Positions 1-32,806 of a DNA stretch of 32,971 nt are shown here, piece after piece. The stretch comes from a virus: the UHGV virus genome UHGV-0159523; one strand, given 5' to 3'. Both the position numbers and the translations under genes were made by a program. Positions within the stretch are counted from its first letter, which is position 1, and each line of letters begins with the position of its first letter. The notes beneath the pieces are model-generated. The model did not search any database. It saw nothing but the letters and a program-made list of their open reading frames with translations, and was not told the DNA's origin.

Positions 1-1527
<1,527 letters not shown>

Positions 1528-25864: not shown

Positions 25865-25896
25865 ATCTTTCTCCTCTGAAATCCAGAGGGGATAAT

Positions 25897-25934
25897 GCTA
25901 CTTAAAGTAGCGAATTGCAACTACTTAAAATAGA
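25897..25934. promoter_or_regulatory. OR-like operators: two copies of a 15-bp palindrome (gctacttaaagtagc and actacttaaaataga)
   Basis: First copy is a perfect odd-length palindrome; second is a near copy 23 bp away centre to centre; both lie in the 71-bp gap between divergent cro-like and cI starts. Confidence 0.55.
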
Positions 25935-25935
25935 A

Positions 25936-26676
25936 ATGACGAGCGTATGTGATGTGAGTAATCTTCTACCTATGGTAGAAGAACAGAAGTATCCAGATTT
26001 CGCCAAGAGACTAAACGAGTTAATGACAAACAAGGGAATTTCTGTCACCCAACTCAAAAGTCTTGTTGGCGTTACATATGAAATGGCGCGGCGATACACA
26101 ATCGGCGCAGCGAAGCCTCGTGCCTCTGTCATGAATAAACTTGCGTTGGCTCTGGGGGTATCGGCTTCATATTTAGAATATGGTGTTGGCGAGAGAGAAG
26201 GATGTAAGGAAATGGCAAGCATCCCCAATCCAACAAAACCCGACGTATACAGGATAGAAGTTTTAGATCTTAGCGTTAGCGCAGGACCTGGAACCTATAT
26301 GCTTTCAGACTATGTTGATGTGCTCTACGCCATTGAGTTCACAACAGAACATGCCCGTTCTCTTTTCGGTAACCGTTCTCAGGATGATATTAAGGTTATG
26401 ACTGTAAATGGCGATAGTATGTCCCCTACTCTCGTTTCCGGAGATCGACTGTTTGTCGACATTTCTGTTCGTCACTTCCAGACTGATGGAATTTACTCTT
26501 TCGTTTACGGTAAGACTTTTCATGTTAAACGTCTTCAAATGCAAGGTGACAAGCTAGCCGTTCTTTCGGATAACCCTGCCTATGAGAAATGGTACATCGA
26601 TGAAAAATCGCAGGATCAGCTTTATGTAATGGGCAAGGCGTTGATTCATGAGTCAATAAAATACAATCGGTTATAG
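25936..26676 (+). CDS. CI-like prophage repressor with C-terminal S24 (LexA-like) peptidase domain
   Basis: N-terminal HTH (FAKRLNELMTNKGISVTQLKSLVGVTYEMARRY); C-terminal VNGDSMSPTL and FHVKRL Ser/Lys dyad; ATG at 25936 may be leaderless, TTG at 25915 is the track start. Confidence 0.85.
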   Translation: MTSVCDVSNLLPMVEEQKYPDFAKRLNELMTNKGISVTQLKSLVGVTYEMARRYTIGAAKPRASVMNKLALALGVSASYLEYGVGEREGCKEMASIPNPTKPDVYRIEVLDLSVSAGPGTYMLSDYVDVLYAIEFTTEHARSLFGNRSQDDIKVMTVNGDSMSPTLVSGDRLFVDISVRHFQTDGIYSFVYGKTFHVKRLQMQGDKLAVLSDNPAYEKWYIDEKSQDQLYVMGKALIHESIKYNRL

Positions 26677-27391: not shown

Positions 27392-27696
27392 TAAGTTTTT
27401 GACTATGACCTGCCCTAGTTTTCTTACTATCGAGGCTAAATCACACAATCCATTGAGTAGTAAATTCCCTACCGTTTTACACTTAGCCTCCAAAAACTCA
27501 ACAATACTCTCATGATTGACTTCTCCCCACTTGATGATTAACTAGATCACATACTGATCTCAGCCACAATGAAACAATCCATCACGTTCTACAACTCAGC
27601 TAACTTCACAATATAATTTTTTGATCATAGCCCCAAAATATTTTACCTGTAAATTCAATGAATTAATTTCAAAATGCGTTTTTATGCCCTTAACTT

Positions 27697-27733
27697 CTAC
27701 TTTTTGTAGTTGATTTTTGCAACTTTAAGTAGC
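27697..27733. promoter_or_regulatory. OL-like operators: two copies related to the OR palindrome (ctactttttgtag, gcaactttaagtagc)
   Basis: Second site matches OR 15-mer at 13/15; first shares CTACTT...GTAG arms; 23-bp spacing as at OR; additional half-site aagtagc at 27774-27780. Confidence 0.45.
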
Positions 27734-27861
27734 AATATCATTTTACCGACAACGAACAGGCAGGACGCCCACGAAGTAGCCGCCTGGGGCATATGAAGTC
27801 CAGGATGATTCGTTGAGTCATGTTGTGCCACTAGGCACTCATGTTAAAGCAGGTGTATGAA

Positions 27862-28137
27862 ATGAAAGTCCAGATTTTAAACAATAACTGTGAAGTCGTT
27901 TGGTCATACGACATAGCCGCCCCTGTAGATCAGAGCGGCGATAGCTGGACCAATGGGAAACATCAGATTATGGCTGGAGTTGTGTTCTCTTTACGCCGTG
28001 CTTTGGAACAGGCTGAAGTATTTCCATCAGACCCTGAATGGAAATGGCCTTTTTCTATTTGTCCAAATTCGGAGAGCACATTTCAGAAAATTGGTCAGAA
28101 AGTCGCACTCGAAGAGCATCAGCCAACTGTTTCCTGA
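27862..28137 (+). CDS. Hypothetical early-left protein, 92 aa from ATG 27862
   Basis: SD AGGTG 7 nt upstream of ATG 27862; first ORF downstream of OL-like region; 3' end overlaps a convergent ORF. Confidence 0.35.
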   Translation: MKVQILNNNCEVVWSYDIAAPVDQSGDSWTNGKHQIMAGVVFSLRRALEQAEVFPSDPEWKWPFSICPNSESTFQKIGQKVALEEHQPTVS

Positions 28138-28300
28138 TTTTTTCAGGTAACTCGTCGGCATCGCAGAAACAACAACGCTCGATCATGTTGAAAGCCGATT
28201 CGTAGAACTGTTTCTGCTGAGTGTCGCTGAGACAGGAAAAGAGCGACGTTACGATGATTTTATTAATTGCATTATCAAGTTCTTTTTCATCAAAAGTCAT
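28055..28300 (-). CDS. Hypothetical small protein, 81 aa, antisense to the early-left operon
   Basis: SD AAGGA 7 nt upstream of ATG 28298-28300; Cys cluster ERCCFCDADE; overlaps the 3' end of 27862..28137 by 83 nt. Confidence 0.4.
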   Translation of the reverse strand: MTFDEKELDNAINKIIVTSLFSCLSDTQQKQFYESAFNMIERCCFCDADELPEKIRKQLADALRVRLSDQFSEMCSPNLDK

Positions 28301-28505
28301 TTGATTTTCCTTTTATGTATACGGGCTTAAAAGGATACCACCGAGCCTGAAGTGGTGAAAAGACAGGCACATAACAGCTAAGTATTTTCAACCAAAGAGA
28401 ATCCTTAGCGTTGTGGTGAATGCGGCTCAGCGCACGCGGGTTAAGGTTGAGGCTGACAGTCGACCTTCTGTGGATACCCACCCGTCTGGTGTGCAACCTT
28501 CGCCA

Positions 28506-28543
28506 GGCACCGGGAGGCACCCGGCACCCGGCACCCGGCACCA
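28506..28543. repeat. Tandem heptamer repeat GGCACC(C/G/A), five copies
   Basis: Read directly: ggcaccg gga ggcaccc ggcaccc ggcaccc ggcacca; within a GC-rich region lacking a convincing gene. Confidence 0.7.
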
Positions 28544-28751
28544 CAACTTTATGCTGTGTGTAGTCCTGGCGGTACCAGTTTGTACCCTTGCTTCCGGCTG
28601 GTACCGTCCTTTTTACAAAACAGAGAAGAGCATCACCGGACGACGGGCTCATAACCCAATCCAACCGGGCGGCTGCCACCGCAGGTGTTCTTCTCTGTTT
28701 TGTGGAGAAACTAATCGGCCTTGCAGGGTCGATATGATGAGGAGCAGCAAA

Positions 28752-29114
28752 ATGGCTAGCGAACGCAGTACTGATGTGCAGGCATTTATCGGGGAGCTGG
28801 ACGGCGGCGTATTTGAAACCAAAATCGGCGCAGTTCTCAGTGAAGTCGCTTCCGGTGTGATGAACACGAAAACCAAAGGTAAGGTCTCACTCAACCTGGA
28901 AATCGAACCATTTGATGAGAACCGTGTGAAAATCAAACACAAACTCTCATATGTTCGCCCGACTAACCGCGGGAAAATTTCCGAAGAAGACACCACCGAA
29001 ACGCCGATGTATGTCAATCGCGGTGGTCGCCTGACTATTCTGCAGGAAGACCAGGGACAATTACTGACTCTTGCCGGTGAACCTGACGGAAAACTCCGCG
29101 CAGCAGGTCATTAA
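28752..29114 (+). CDS. Hypothetical protein, 120 aa from ATG 28752 (size and position match CPS-53 YfdP as recalled)
   Basis: Strong SD GAGGAG 7 nt upstream of ATG 28752; the 113 in-frame upstream codons are Pro/Arg/Gly-rich and judged non-coding. Confidence 0.5.
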   Translation: MASERSTDVQAFIGELDGGVFETKIGAVLSEVASGVMNTKTKGKVSLNLEIEPFDENRVKIKHKLSYVRPTNRGKISEEDTTETPMYVNRGGRLTILQEDQGQLLTLAGEPDGKLRAAGH

Positions 29115-31326: not shown

Positions 31327-31676
31327 TGGAGCCATACAGCCTCACACTCGATGAGGCCTGTCATTTTCTCAAGATATCCAGACCGACTGCCATTAACTGG
31401 ATACGCACAGGGCGTCTTCAGGCAACACGCAAAGATCCCACTAAGAATAAATCTCCTTACCTCACAACACGACAAGCCTGCATTGCGGCTCTTCAGTCTC
31501 CGCTGCATACTGTCCAGGTGAGCGCGGGTGATGGCATAACAGAGGAAAGAAAATGTCACTCTTCCGCAGAGGTGAAATATGGTACGCCAGTTTCACATTG
31601 CCGAACGGTAAAAGATTTAAACAGTCTCTTGGAACAAAGGACAAAAGGCAGGCGACAGAACTCCATGACAAGCTAA
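31326..31676 (+). CDS. xis: Excisionase (AlpA/MerR-type HTH), 116 aa
   Basis: SD AGAGGTG; N-terminal [35 protein letters not shown]-binding motif; immediately upstream of and overlapping int. Confidence 0.7.
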
Positions 31677-32716
31677 AGGCTGAAGCATGGCGGGTCAGCA
31701 AACTTGGTGAAATACCTGATATAACGTTCGAGGAAGCGTGTGTCAGGTGGCTTGAAGAGAAAGCACATAAAAAATCACTGGACGATGACAAAAGCCGGAT
31801 CGGATTCTGGCTTCAACATTTCGCAGGAATGCAACTAAGAGACATTACTGAATCAAAAATTTATTCAGCAATGCAGAAAATGACGAACCGGCGTCATGAG
31901 GAAAACTGGAAACTCAGGGCAGAAGCATGCAGAAAAAAAGGGAAACCTGTTCCAGAATACACGCCAAAACCAGCGTCCGTTGCAACGAAGGCTACGCATC
32001 TTTCATTTATAAAGGCCCTACTAAGAGCCGCAGAGCGTGAATGGAAAATGCTGGATAAGGCACCAATTATTAAAGTGCCCCAATCAAAGAATAAACGGAT
32101 CCGCTGGCTGGAGCCCCATGAAGCACAAAGGCTGATTGATGAATGTCCGGAACCATTAAAGTCTGTTGTTGAATTTGCACTGGCAACAGGCCTAAGACGC
32201 TCGAACATCATCAACCTTGAATGGCAACAAATAGATATGCAGCGCCGGGTGGCATGGATAAACCCGGAAGAGAGTAAATCAAACCGCGCAATTGGCGTTG
32301 CGCTGAATGATACTGCATGTCGCGTATTGAAAAAACAAATCGGGAATCATCACCGTTGGGTATTTGTGTACAAGGAAAGCTGTACCAAACCAGACGGAAC
32401 GAAAGCGCCAACAGTCAGGAAGATGCGGTATGACGCAAACACAGCCTGGAAAGCGGCGCTGAGACGGGCTGGTATTGATGATTTTAGATTTCACGACTTG
32501 AGACACACCTGGGCAAGTTGGCTGGTTCAAGCCGGAGTCCCGTTGTCAGTGTTACAGGAAATGGGAGGCTGGGAGTCTATCGAAATGGTTCGTCGATATG
32601 CTCACCTTGCACCTAATCACCTTACCGAACACGCACGGCAAATAGACTCGATCCTAAACCCATCGGTCCCAAATTTGTCCCAGTCAAAAAATAAGGAAGG
32701 TACTAATGATGTGTAA
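31553..32716 (+). CDS. int: Tyrosine integrase (phage-type site-specific recombinase), 387 aa
   Basis: N-terminal [21 protein letters not shown] typical of enterobacterial phage integrases; catalytic HDLRHTW box and RRYAHL tyrosine motif; ends 15 bp from the tRNA 3' end. Confidence 0.9.
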
Positions 32717-32730
32717 CTTATTGATTTAAA

Positions 32731-32806
32731 TGGTGCCGATAATAGGAGTCGAACCTACGACCTTCGCATTACGAATGCGCTGCTCTACCAACTGAGCTAT
32801 ATCGGC
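32731..32806 (-). tRNA. thrW: tRNA-Thr (anticodon CGU), thrW-type; prophage attachment site at its 3' end
   Basis: Reverse complement folds as a 76-nt tRNA ending in CCA with anticodon loop TT-CGT-AA; sequence matches E. coli tRNA-Thr(CGU) as I recall it. Confidence 0.9.

What the first reader, a model, noticed from the sequence alone, without database searches (positions are those of the whole stretch)
28301..28751. 450-bp GC-rich ORF-poor region with tandem GGCACCC heptamers and a 9-bp-arm inverted repeat
Seen in sequence: between the divergent starts of the minus-strand 81-aa ORF and the plus-strand yfdP-like gene lies an unusually long GC-rich gap. It contains five GGCACC(C/G/A) heptamers (four tandem, 28516-28543), a cggtaccag...ctggtaccg inverted repeat (28570-28606) and several further GC hairpins. 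The only long ORF across it is a low-complexity Pro/Arg/Gly-rich upstream extension without a ribosome-binding site. Inference: candidates are a structured non-coding RNA, a long regulated leader, iterated protein-binding sites, or the decayed 5' part of a formerly longer gene.
Basis: seen in the sequence. Interest (0 to 1): 0.55.

Follow-up and report, generated by a model that had tools for sequence, protein, structure and literature searches.

The report
Structured RNA leader of prophage early operon
The GC-rich gap is the non-coding leader of the prophage's early-left operon: a chain of conserved RNA structures, namely a pseudoknotted domain related to the STnc100/PasD prophage small RNAs, a DicF-like small-RNA/terminator module and a long hairpin, and the "tandem heptamers" are a 14-base slippage inside the conserved core of the first one.

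Summary

The region is not a gene remnant or a set of protein-binding repeats. It is the plus-strand leader of the PL (early-left) operon of an SfV-like prophage at thrW. It is modular.

- **28410-28547:** a pseudoknotted domain of the STnc100/PasD superfamily. A covariance model built without this sequence scores it 65 bits (E 7e-17). It is an early-operon subtype that Rfam's own model misses (27.8 bits against a cut-off of 47) and that has no promoter of its own. The heptamers are its conserved 3' core (CCGGG-AGGCA-CCCGG-CACC) expanded by two CGGCACC units. No sampled relative has this expansion.
- **28548-28614:** a DicF-like stretch plus an intrinsic terminator, which is the inverted repeat.
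- **28610-28708:** a three-way-junction hairpin with a stem of at least 25 bp, not in Rfam.
- **28714-28733:** a small hairpin next to the yfdP ribosome-binding site.

Homologous copies exist in E. coli K-12. The e14 copy is annotated as the CDS ymfH, and another lies in the dicF-dicB spacer. The most likely function follows the DicF precedent and is inferred, not shown: small RNA(s) made by termination and RNase processing of the PL transcript, plus a terminator gate.

The parts
27683..27745 (+). OL operators and PL promoter region (context). It is a 57-nt inverted copy of the OR region at 25891-25947, so PL fires on the + strand towards the finding.
   Evidence: I1 (57 nt, 75% complementary) and D1 (CTACTTAAAGTAG-type half-sites). 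The e14 homologue has TTGACA-16/17-CATAAT at the same place. In the window the promoter hexamers are weak by consensus and were not listed by the scan.
27748..27814 (+). Conserved, structured 5' leader element at the start of the PL transcript (context). It occupies the position of HK022 putL, but homology to put is not shown.
   Evidence: It is conserved in Escherichia, Shigella, Salmonella, Klebsiella, Citrobacter, Yersinia, Pantoea and Pectobacterium phages. Stem II and the outer helix covary. Its alignment to HK022 putL is within shuffles (55/500). It is found within 2.5 kb upstream of 8 of 14 GCG-type cores and of 0 of 91 CCC-type cores.
28337..28356 (+). Hairpin H0 (ACCAC...GTGGT) at the 5' edge of the conserved block. 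Read on the - strand it looks like a terminator in this window only.
   Evidence: The conserved block starts at 28332-28338 in IMG/VR relatives, e14, sal3, Kp4866-6 and phiES15. In e14 no U-run follows it on the - strand.
28377..28409 (+). Hairpin H1, immediately 5' of the pseudoknotted domain.
   Evidence: I3. Its energy is -11.8 kcal/mol, z -6.3. ST64B has a different hairpin (TAAGAG...CTCTTA) at the same place.
28410..28547 (+). Pseudoknotted RNA domain of the STnc100/PasD superfamily, of the 'GCG-type' early-operon subfamily.
- P1: 28410-18 / 28539-47
- P2: 28422-37
- P3: 28438-40 / 28481-83
- P4: 28486-91 / 28501-06
- P5: 28510-14 / 28520-24
- Pseudoknot: AAGGTTG 28443-49 with CAACCTT 28494-500 (the P4 loop)
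   Evidence: Model R1, built from 42 relatives without this sequence, scores it 65.4 bits, E 7e-17, full length. Family covariation: 93.7% of cells paired against 77.2% shuffled, and 20 of 27 pairs have compensatory changes. Pseudoknot: longest complementary run averages 6.76 nt against 4.65 for mismatched partners, 0/2000 permutations reach it, 58 distinct duplexes. G-U 115 against A-C 41. Rfam STnc100 scores 27.8 bits, below its cut-off of 47.
28516..28543 (+). Tandem GGCACCC heptamers. This is the conserved P5-3'/P1-3' core (CCCGG-CACC) with two extra CGGCACC units (14 nt), a slipped-strand expansion specific to this window.
   Evidence: All close relatives are 14 nt shorter. All 40 rows sampled evenly across 1,842 E. 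coli records with a match span 95-97 nt for the 111-nt query. R1 scores the window 65.4 bits against 79.2 bits for the SfV copy.
28548..28614 (+). DicF-like module.
   Evidence: Local alignment to K-12 DicF scores 45 against 18.8 +/- 3.7 in shuffles, 0/2000. The hairpin covaries: 7 of 12 pairs are compensatory, and CCTTTTTAC is invariant. The Rfam DicF model gives only 15.7 bits, E 3.2.
28610..28708 (+). Long three-way-junction hairpin 'B'. The stem has at least 25 bp (arms 28615-39 / 28679-703) and extends over the U-tract by pairing UUUUU with GGAGA. There are two inner hairpins and a conserved interior sequence CGACGGGCTCATAACCCAATCCA. It is a candidate RNase III processing site.
   Evidence: Its energy is -49.2 kcal/mol, z -7.0. 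The consensus structure has compensatory pairs and three invariant U-G pairs. The interior motif is found in at least 120 IMG/VR contigs, with or without the domain at 28410-28547. There is no Rfam match at E<=10.
28714..28733 (+). Small hairpin 5 nt upstream of the yfdP Shine-Dalgarno sequence (GAGGAG, 28739-44; ATG at 28752).
   Evidence: The same position holds GGCGG-TGGCA-CCGCC in ST64B, phiNP and Kp4866-6 against TCGGCC-TTGCA-GGGTCGA here.

Best explanation
The gap is the transcribed, non-coding leader of the prophage's early-left (PL) operon. It is read on the + strand from PL (about 27745) towards yfdP-yfdQ-yfdR...xis-int. It is built from mobile RNA modules.

**What is shown**
1. 28410-28547 is a five-helix, pseudoknotted domain belonging to the STnc100/PasD superfamily of prophage RNAs. 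It is an early-operon subtype that lacks its own promoter.
2. The tandem heptamers are a 14-nt slippage expansion of that domain's conserved 3' core.
3. 28548-28614 is homologous to the DicF small RNA and ends in an intrinsic terminator.
4. 28610-28733 is a conserved long hairpin plus a small hairpin in front of the yfdP ribosome-binding site.

**What is inferred, by analogy with the dicBF operon of K-12**
1. When the repressor is lost, PL transcripts run into the terminator.
2. Those that stop there are trimmed by RNase E and give one or more Hfq-type small RNAs, as happens for DicF, STnc100 and PasD.
3. Those that read through are cut by RNase III in the long stem. This frees the small-RNA part and defines the 5' end of the yfdP mRNA.
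4. The terminator therefore also acts as a gate in front of the early-left genes. Read-through is possibly helped by the conserved element at the 5' end of the transcript.
For: **Context**
- OL/PL is an inverted copy of OR, so transcription runs on the + strand.
- The same layout (repressor, conserved 5' element, long non-coding stretch, first early-left gene) is found in SfV, ST64B, 118970_sal3, phiNP, Kp4866-6, phiES15, mEp460, cdtI and e14.

**Strand**
- The + strand folds better: -177.6 kcal/mol (z -4.2) against -166.1 (z -2.65).
- Paired columns hold 115 G-U against 41 A-C.
- The terminator has its U-tract on the + strand.

**The pseudoknotted domain**
- An independent covariance model scores it 65.4 bits, E 7e-17, and finds nothing in 720 kb of unrelated DNA.
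- Covariation and pseudoknot statistics support the fold.
- Typical members are Rfam STnc100 at 52-132 bits. They are expressed as roughly 200-nt RNAs in EHEC, one confirmed by Northern blot (PMC5331693). PasD relatives bind Hfq (bioRxiv 10.64898/2026.05.13.724894).

**No promoter of its own**
- GCG-type copies score no better than shuffles for a sigma-70 promoter, whereas late-region copies carry one ending 3 nt before the model start.
- The e14 copy's upstream region is inactive in a reporter screen, and ymfH belongs to the YmfT (prophage induction) iModulon (PMC12132413).

**DicF-like module**
- Similarity to DicF is reached by 0 of 2000 shuffles.
- DicF is made from a polycistronic early-left transcript by RNase E, intrinsic termination and RNase III (PMC5069750).
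- K-12 has a GCG-type domain directly after dicF (72.7 bits).

**Not coding:**
Against: - No transcript data exist for this prophage, so RNA ends, Hfq binding, RNase E and RNase III cuts and targets are all inferred.
- Both Rfam models score below their curated cut-offs: STnc100 27.8 against 47, DicF 15.7 against 48.
- The order of modules differs from Qin: here the domain comes before the DicF-like part, in Qin after it.
- No target of the conserved unpaired stretch was found in the window. A pairing test against ftsZ was uninformative.
- The deep conservation of a pseudoknotted core is unusual for a base-pairing small RNA and hints at another, unknown activity.
- The 14-nt expansion lowers the model score by 14 bits and may impair this particular copy.
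- The 5' element is put-like by position only, so how the terminator is passed is unknown.
Confidence: 0.6

Rival explanations
1. The pseudoknotted domain is a cis-acting transcription-control element rather than a small RNA. It would bind RNA polymerase, a host factor or a ligand, and set the efficiency of the terminator 20 nt downstream or of later terminators. That would make it a riboswitch-like or put-like device for the early-left operon.
For: - It always lies inside operon leaders just upstream of an intrinsic terminator.
- Its junction sequences are near-invariant (GGUGAAU and CACCGGGAGGCACCCGGCACC) across very divergent helices, and the pseudoknot is conserved. This is more typical of ligand- or protein-binding RNAs than of seed-pairing small RNAs.
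- The GCG-type has no promoter of its own.
- In the window and in L014 the pseudoknot's 5' strand has a second, mutually exclusive local partner: 28460-67 TCGACCTT against the P4 loop.
Against: - Late-region members, each with its own promoter and terminator, accumulate as discrete roughly 200-nt RNAs in lysogens (PMC5331693). They stand in arrays right in front of lysis genes, so the domain does not suppress its own terminator.
- I found by eye no alternative pairing between the domain and the terminator that is shared by the window and ST64B (sequences). No dedicated computation was run.
- The terminator and long hairpin occur without the domain in 66 of 123 cases.
Confidence: 0.15
2. The region encodes a protein: a YmfH-like ORF, that is the 233-aa frame running into yfdP or its frameshifted remnant. 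Alternatively it encodes the 129-aa ORF on the minus strand.
For: - K-12 annotates the e14 homologue as the CDS ymfH.
- NCBI's annotation pipeline calls a 'frameshifted hypothetical protein' in strain ECONIH4.
- The minus-strand ORF matches PHROG families.
Against: - The frames are broken in SfV, ST64B and sal3.
- Only 1 of 7 indels is a multiple of three.
- Substitutions fall 34/34/42 over the three codon positions.
- There is no Pfam family and no ribosome-binding site at the GTG start.
- The PHROG hits are families of ORFs that other annotators called on the same DNA, for example cdtI orf40, which overlaps yfdP.
- RNA covariation explains the conservation.
Confidence: 0.04
3. The heptamers, the inverted repeats or both act at the DNA level, as iterated binding sites for a phage regulator, a recombination site or an origin.
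For: There are five closely spaced GGCACC motifs and several palindromes.
Against: - Only two GGCACC copies in this array are ancestral. The other two are unique to this window.
- The motif sits in helices that covary as RNA, with G-U pairs exceeding A-C pairs.
- The hairpin arms change sequence while keeping their pairing. DNA sites that bind a protein would not do this.
Confidence: 0.03
4. The left part (28301-28410) serves the minus strand, as the promoter and 5' UTR of the 81-aa ORF (28300-28055), possibly with an attenuator hairpin at 28356-28337.
For: - The ORF has a good ribosome-binding site (AAGGAA, 7 nt before the ATG at 28300).
- A terminator-like hairpin with a T-run lies on the - strand at 28356-28327.
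- Antisense cassette genes sit at the same place in e14 (ymfI) and mEp460.
- The cassette 27815-28337 is variable between phages.
Against: - No convincing minus-strand promoter was found.
- The T-run is not conserved in e14.
- This reading concerns only about 100 bp and is compatible with the main explanation.
Confidence: 0.1

Closest known systems
Rfam RF02076 STnc100, and the related PasD1/PasD2 small RNAs of EPEC/EHEC prophages
   Same: - The same five-helix architecture.
- The same near-invariant GGUGAAU and CACCGGGAGGCACCCGGCACC blocks.
- The same pseudoknot between the segment after P2 and the P4 loop.
- An intrinsic terminator downstream.
   Different: - The P2 and P3 sequences are of another type (GCG...CGC instead of CCCC...GGGG).
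- It scores below Rfam's cut-off: 27.8 bits here, and 29-41 bits for the SfV, e14, ST64B, phiES15 and Qin copies.
- It sits in the early-left leader, not in the late region between Q and the lysis genes.
- It has no sigma-70 promoter of its own.
- It carries a 14-nt heptamer expansion.
- The pseudoknot is not part of the Rfam consensus line shown.
DicF small RNA (Rfam RF00039) of the Qin prophage dicBF operon
   Same: - It lies in an early-left operon downstream of the repressor gene.
- It has a short unpaired 5' part followed by a GGCGG...CCGCC terminator and a U-tract.
- Sequence similarity is significant.
- It is a neighbour of a GCG-type pseudoknotted domain.
- The known way DicF is made, by RNase E, termination and RNase III (PMC5069750), fits the anatomy here: a terminator followed by a long double-stranded stem.
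   Different: - The Rfam DicF model gives only 15.7 bits.
- The 5' (seed) part differs: UGCUGUGUGUAGUC against UUUCUGGUGACGUU.
- The terminator loop is longer.
- The order of the domain and the DicF-like part is reversed.
- No ftsZ pairing signal was found.
ymfH (b1142), an annotated CDS of the e14 prophage in E. coli K-12
   Same: It is the same locus: 87% identity over 28332-28741, and the same modules in the same order in front of xisE-intE.
   Different: It is annotated as a protein. The evidence here says structured RNA. e14 has two heptamers, not four, and a slightly damaged P5.
HK022 put RNAs and the lambda N-leader RNase III hairpin / tL terminators
   Same: Early-left leaders of lambdoid phages combine an element that modifies elongation, terminators and an RNase III-cut hairpin before the first gene. 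Here a conserved structured element sits at +1 of PL, as putL does (PMC9378689).
   Different: There is no significant similarity to putL and no putR-like second copy. None of the modules in the finding resembles nut or put. Antitermination is not shown.

Membership tests
STnc100 (Rfam RF02076) superfamily | A score at or above Rfam's curated gathering cut-off (47 bits) | tested here: not met
   The window scores 27.8 bits, covering model positions 34-144 only. SfV scores 39.5, phiES15 40.6, ST64B 35.1, e14 29.2 and Qin 34.4. Late-region copies score 52-132 bits.
STnc100 (Rfam RF02076) superfamily | The shared secondary structure P1-P5, supported by covariation | tested here: met
   A covariance model built from 42 relatives, excluding the window and its near-identical copies, scores it 65.4 bits, E 7e-17, over model positions 1-116. 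In the family 93.7% of cells are paired, 20 of 27 pairs have compensatory changes, and shifted controls pair in only 36-50% of cells. The caveat is that the alignment was fitted to the model.
STnc100 (Rfam RF02076) superfamily | The conserved blocks GGUGAAU (5') and CACCGGGAGGCACCCGGCACC (3') | tested here: met
   GGTGAAT lies at 28415-21 and the 21-mer at 28508-28528. The 21-mer is found in at least 120 IMG/VR contigs.
STnc100 (Rfam RF02076) superfamily | A pseudoknot between the segment after P2 and the P4 loop (a feature found here, not part of the Rfam definition) | tested here: met
   In the window AAGGTTG (28443-49) pairs with CAACCTT (28494-500). In the family the longest complementary run averages 6.76 nt against 4.65 for mismatched partners, 0/2000 permutations reach it, and there are 58 distinct duplexes.
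STnc100 (Rfam RF02076) superfamily | An independent transcription unit: its own sigma-70 promoter ending just before P1, and its own terminator | tested here: not met
   A terminator is present (28568-28614). The promoter is absent: the best match is CAGCTA-16-GAGAAT, 6 of 12. GCG-type copies average 3.5 against 3.35 in shuffles, while CCC-type copies average 6.94 against 4.82.
STnc100 (Rfam RF02076) superfamily | Accumulation as a discrete RNA of about 200 nt, and Hfq association | not testable with these tools
   This is known only for late-region members (PMC5331693) and for PasD (bioRxiv 10.64898/2026.05.13.724894).
DicF (Rfam RF00039) | A score at or above Rfam's gathering cut-off (48 bits) | tested here: not met
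   It scores 15.7 bits, E 3.2, at 28555-28609. K-12 dicF itself scores 76.7 bits.
DicF (Rfam RF00039) | Sequence homology to DicF, including the GGCGG...CCGCC terminator and the U-tract | tested here: met
   The local alignment score is 45 against 18.8 +/- 3.7 in shuffles, 0/2000. The e14 copy scores 53.
DicF (Rfam RF00039) | Location in the early-left operon of a lambdoid prophage, downstream of the repressor gene | tested here: met
DicF (Rfam RF00039) | Base-pairing with ftsZ and other DicF targets | tested here: inconclusive
   The duplex energy against the ftsZ translation-initiation region is no better than shuffles: 156/300 for the window RNA. DicF itself reached only 25/300, so the test has little power.
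HK022 put antiterminator RNA (considered for the 27748-27814 element, not for the finding itself) | Sequence and structure similarity to putL/putR | tested here: not met
   The global alignment score is 28, reached by 55 of 500 shuffles. There is no second copy in the window. Only the position at +1 of PL matches (PMC9378689).

The most novel reading that the evidence does not exclude
The STnc100-type pseudoknotted domain may not be an ordinary seed-pairing small RNA. It may be a structured RNA that binds a conserved cellular or phage partner, such as RNA polymerase, an RNase, Hfq-independent proteins or a small molecule. The overlooked promoter-less 'GCG-type' sits in early-left leaders, including the K-12 dicF-dicB spacer and the so-called gene ymfH. 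It would then be a new class of cis-acting control element for genes such as kil, dicB, xis and int in lambdoid prophages.
Probability: 0.15. Interest if true: 0.8.

Novelty: new variant of a known kind. Interest (0 to 1): 0.5.

Why it matters
- **It explains the odd sequence.** A 450-bp stretch in a very common prophage family is shown to be RNA. Matches occur in about half of complete E. coli genomes.
- **It points to a probable mis-annotation in K-12.** ymfH is probably not a protein.
- **It extends a known family.** The abundant but functionally unexplained STnc100/PasD family has a conserved pseudoknot, and it has a second, promoter-less subtype built into early-left operon leaders next to DicF-like modules.
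- **It can be tested directly in K-12.** Copies exist in e14 and in the dicF-dicB spacer. Such tests bear on how prophage induction is coupled to host regulation and on how the xis/int and kil-type genes are gated.

Tried and rejected
- **Rfam at gathering cut-offs** finds nothing in the region. At E<=10 it gives only sub-threshold STnc100 and DicF hits.
- **Column-wise counting of the pseudoknot** on the model-fitted alignment was blurred by register shifts. I replaced it with a per-sequence test.
- **A first automatic P4 caller** was noisy.
- **The 14-mer scan of genome contigs** (GTGGTGAATGCGGC) returned only chance matches in unrelated phyla, and R1 found none of them real.
- **svsR** (PMC12803456) and **C0293** are different elements, at the 3' end of cI and elsewhere in e14.
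- **King 2011 on put-like RNAs** (PMC3187212) and **Faubladier & Bouche 1994 on dicF-like sequences** (PMC205167) are not held, so I could not check whether these leaders were described there.
- **K-12 CPS-53**, the home of the name yfdP, lacks the region. Similarity starts only at 28733.
- **A riboswitch-like antiterminator pairing** between the domain and the terminator was looked for by eye in the window and ST64B and not found.
- **A target of the unpaired stretch** inside the window was not found.
- **The ftsZ pairing test** was uninformative.
Full report
**1. The observation**

The sequence features are as described.
- Five GGCACCV heptamers lie at 28506, 28516, 28523, 28530 and 28537. 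The last four form a perfect period-7 array.
- The 9-bp inverted repeat lies at 28570-78 / 28598-606.
- GC content peaks at 0.63.
- The gap lies between the ATG of an 81-aa minus-strand ORF (28300) and yfdP, whose ATG is at 28752 with a GAGGAG ribosome-binding site at 28739-44.

- The largest structure: a 25-nt-arm inverted repeat at 28615-39 / 28679-703, with a folding energy of -49.2 kcal/mol, z -7.0.
- A 9-bp helix at 28410-18 / 28539-47 that encloses the heptamer region.

**2. Context**

The window is an SfV-like prophage.
- The integrase gene lies at 31553-32716, next to tRNA-Thr(CGU) at 32731-32806.
- The region matches phage SfV at 97% identity, and 2,864 of 5,426 complete E. coli genomes have a match.
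- A 57-nt inverted copy of the cI/cro operator region (25891-25947) lies at 27683-27739. A PL-type promoter therefore fires on the + strand at about 27745, through the finding, into yfdP-yfdQ-yfdR...xis-int.

The same layout recurs in SfV, ST64B, 118970_sal3, phiNP, Kp4866-6, phiES15, mEp460, cdtI and K-12 e14. It runs: repressor gene, a conserved 66-nt element at the start of the left transcript, a variable cassette, a long non-coding stretch, then the first early-left gene.

Mosaic boundaries are sharp. 27748-27814 and 28338-28728 are conserved, while 27815-28337 is a swappable cassette.

**3. Strand and coding**

The RNA is read on the + strand.
- The + strand folds better: -177.6 kcal/mol, z -4.2, against -166.1, z -2.65.
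- Family-wide, paired columns hold 115 G-U against 41 A-C.
- The terminator has its U-tract on the + strand.

The region does not look coding.
- The two long ORFs across the gap are not conserved. The frames break in SfV, ST64B and sal3.
- Only 1 of 7 indels against ST64B is a multiple of three.
- Substitutions fall 34/34/42 on codon positions 1/2/3.
- There is no Pfam hit.
- The PHROG hits of the minus-strand ORF are to ORFs that other annotators called on the same DNA.

**4. Module A, 28410-28547**

*How the family was found.* Rfam gave a sub-threshold, partial STnc100 hit of 27.8 bits against a cut-off of 47. The 21-mer CACCGGGAGGCACCCGGCACC occurs in at least 120 IMG/VR contigs. Aligning 43 representatives below 85% identity showed a large, diverse family. 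Its order is:
- P1
- GAAU
- the P2 hairpin with a bulged A
- P3, which encloses a variable insert
- the P4 hairpin
- P5 (CCGGG-AGGCA-CCCGG)
- the 3' strand of P1

*Membership test.* I built a covariance model (R1) from 42 members, excluding the window and its close copies.
- It finds the window at 28410-28533 with 65.4 bits, E 7e-17, full length.
- It finds 128 copies in 100 phage loci.
- It finds nothing in 720 kb of unrelated bacterial DNA.

*Covariation.*
- 93.7% of cells are paired, against 77.2% in shuffles.
- 20 of 27 pairs have compensatory changes.
- Shifted controls pair in only 36-50% of cells.
- The alignment was fitted to the model, so these counts lean towards the structure.

*Pseudoknot.* The segment just after P2 pairs with the P4 loop. 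The longest complementary run averages 6.76 nt, against 4.65 with mismatched partners and 4.34 with shuffled loops. None of 2000 permutations reaches the observed mean, and there are 58 different duplexes. In the window the pair is AAGGTTG (28443-49) with CAACCTT (28494-500). The pseudoknot is not in the Rfam consensus line shown.

**5. Two subtypes**

*'CCC-type' copies.*
- They are bona fide Rfam STnc100, at 52-132 bits.
- They lie between the Q region and the lysis or nanS genes, often in arrays of 3-5 units about 250 nt apart and next to tRNA genes.
- They carry a sigma-70-like promoter whose -10 element ends 3 nt before the model start: mean score 6.94 against 4.82 in shuffles, with 24% reaching 9 of 12 or better.
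- EDL933 has 11 such copies, expressed in lysogens, one confirmed by Northern blot (PMC5331693).
- PasD relatives were found by Hfq RIL-seq (bioRxiv 10.64898/2026.05.13.724894).

*'GCG-type' copies, including the window's.*
- P2 and P3 have covarying sequences: GCG...CGC in place of CCC...GGG.
- They are below Rfam's cut-off everywhere.
- They have no promoter signal: 3.5 against 3.35 in shuffles.
- The conserved PL leader element lies upstream in 8 of 14 cases, against 0 of 91 for the CCC-type.

*Copies in K-12.* Two GCG-type copies exist in E. coli K-12.
- One is in e14, where the whole of 28332-28741 is 87% conserved and annotated as the CDS ymfH.
- One is in the dicF-dicB spacer of Qin: 72.7 bits, with P5 covarying to CCUGG/CCAGG.

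For e14, a reporter screen found the ymfH upstream region inactive in nearly all conditions, and ymfH belongs to the prophage-induction (YmfT) iModulon (PMC12132413). That fits transcription from PL only.

**6. The heptamers**

They are the 3' strand of P5 plus the 3' strand of P1 (CCCGG-CACC), repeated.
- SfV, e14, ST64B, 14 IMG/VR relatives and every one of 40 rows sampled evenly across 1,842 matching E. coli records are 14 nt shorter, that is they have two CGGCACC units fewer.
- The expansion pushes the true 3' strand of P1 (28539-47) 14 nt away from P5 and costs 14 bits: 65.4 against 79.2 for SfV.

It is therefore a slipped-strand event private to this genome, or possibly an assembly artefact. 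It is not a conserved array of sites.

**7. Module T, 28548-28614**

- It has a conserved unpaired stretch (TGCTGTGTGTAGTC) and a hairpin at 28568-80 / 28596-608, followed by UUUUU.
- The hairpin covaries, for example CGGTACCAG/CTGGTACCG, CGGCGTC/GACGCCG and CGGTTATCC/GGATAACCG. The sequence CCTTTTTAC is invariant.
- The module is significantly similar to K-12 DicF: local score 45 against 18.8 +/- 3.7, with 0 of 2000 shuffles reaching it. The e14 copy scores 53. The Rfam DicF model gives only 15.7 bits.

DicF is made from the polycistronic early-left dicBF transcript. RNase E makes the 5' end. The 3' end comes either from intrinsic termination (53 nt) or from RNase III (72 nt) (PMC5069750).

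**8. Module B, 28610-28708, and the small hairpin, 28714-33**

- B is a three-way junction. Its stem has at least 25 bp and extends over the terminator's U-tract through three invariant U-G pairs.
- The consensus structure has 53 pairs, 13 of them with compensatory changes.
- Its interior motif occurs in at least 120 IMG/VR contigs. Of 123 occurrences, 66 lack module A and the conserved stretch, 42 have both and 13 have the stretch only. Different first genes follow it.
- It has no Rfam match.
- A double-stranded stem this long, directly after a small RNA's terminator and before the first gene's ribosome-binding site, is the arrangement expected for RNase III processing. That is an inference.
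- The small hairpin next to the ribosome-binding site keeps its pairing with different sequences in different phages.

**9. How it most likely works**

*Shown.* The region is a + strand, non-coding, modular RNA leader. It contains a member of the STnc100 superfamily with a pseudoknot, a DicF homologue with an intrinsic terminator, and a conserved long hairpin.

*Inferred.*
- On induction, PL transcripts either stop at 28614 or read through.
- Termination and RNase E/III processing release small RNA(s) that act in trans, as DicF, STnc100 and PasD do.
- The terminator also gates the early-left genes.

*Not shown.* How RNA polymerase passes the terminator is unknown. The conserved element at 27748-27814 sits where HK022 has putL (PMC9378689), but it is not detectably related to it.

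*Main rival.* The pseudoknotted domain may be a cis-acting control element. Its near-invariant junctions argue for this. The accumulation of terminated late-type units argues against it.

**10. Verdict**

The finding is real and is explained as a new, early-operon variant of known prophage RNA families. The eye-catching heptamers are a local slippage. Interest is moderate. The family's function is still unknown, the pseudoknot and the promoter-less subtype appear to be undescribed, and the copies in K-12 make the questions directly testable.

Noticed in passing
window 27748-27814: A 66-nt structured element sits at the very start of the PL transcript. It is conserved across phages of Escherichia, Shigella, Salmonella, Klebsiella, Citrobacter, Yersinia, Pantoea and Pectobacterium. 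Its stem II covaries (CCUGG/CCAGG, CCCGG/CCGGG, CCGGU/ACCGG) and so does the outer pair (A-U to G-C). It has the same position as HK022 putL but no significant similarity to it, and it has no Rfam match.
   Followed up: partly
L132 5070-5381 (E. coli K-12 e14, gene ymfH, b1142): The annotated CDS ymfH lies over a copy of the pseudoknotted domain, the DicF-like terminator and the long hairpin (87% identical to window 28332-28741). It is probably not a protein-coding gene.
   Followed up: partly
L358 2455-2582 (E. coli K-12 Qin, NC_000913.3 1649454-1649581): The dicF-dicB intergenic spacer holds a full-length GCG-type STnc100-like domain (72.7 bits with my model, 34.4 bits with Rfam). It starts about 20 nt after the dicF terminator, near where the 72-nt RNase III form of DicF would end.
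   Followed up: partly
L062 4379-5460, L021 372-989, L030 1725-2342, L012 2325-3351: Late-region STnc100 units occur as tandem arrays of 3-5 copies about 250 nt apart. Each unit has a promoter-like sequence and a terminator. The arrays lie between the Q-region genes (DUF968, a methylase) and the lysis or nanS genes, next to tRNA genes.
   Followed up: partly
window 28443-28467 and 28494-28500: The 5' strand of the pseudoknot (AAGGTTG) has two mutually exclusive partners: a local one (TCGACCTT, 28460-67, used in the minimum-energy fold) and the P4 loop (CAACCTT). Locus L014 shows the same duplication (CAGTCT occurs twice). This could be a structural switch.
   Followed up: no
window 27841-28137 (+) and 28055-28300 (-): Two convergent ORFs overlap by 83 nt at their 3' ends. 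Both match PHROG families of unknown function (phrog_3195 and phrog_3311). NCBI's annotation pipeline keeps only the + strand one, while the - strand one has the better ribosome-binding site. They lie in the swappable cassette between the two conserved leader blocks.
   Followed up: partly
window 28337-28356 (- strand): A terminator-like hairpin with a T-run lies on the minus strand just upstream of the 81-aa ORF's ribosome-binding site. The hairpin is conserved in relatives, but the T-run is not (e14).
   Followed up: partly
window 1-59 (-) and 32731-32806 (-): A truncated isrC small-RNA match lies at the left edge of the window, and tRNA-Thr(CGU), the thrW attachment site, lies directly after the integrase gene at the right edge.
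   Followed up: no
L001 3314-3502 (phage SfV, right operon): SfV carries C4 antisense RNA and isrK matches above Rfam's cut-offs in its early-right region. The window has no such matches, so its immunity and early-right region differs from that of SfV.
   Followed up: no
L129 3355-3489 (phage mEp460): A very weak match of the domain (24 bits) lies just upstream of the terminator and long hairpin in mEp460. There the remnant ACCACAAC joins the terminator without the conserved TGCTGTGTG stretch. It looks like a decayed or recombined copy.
   Followed up: no
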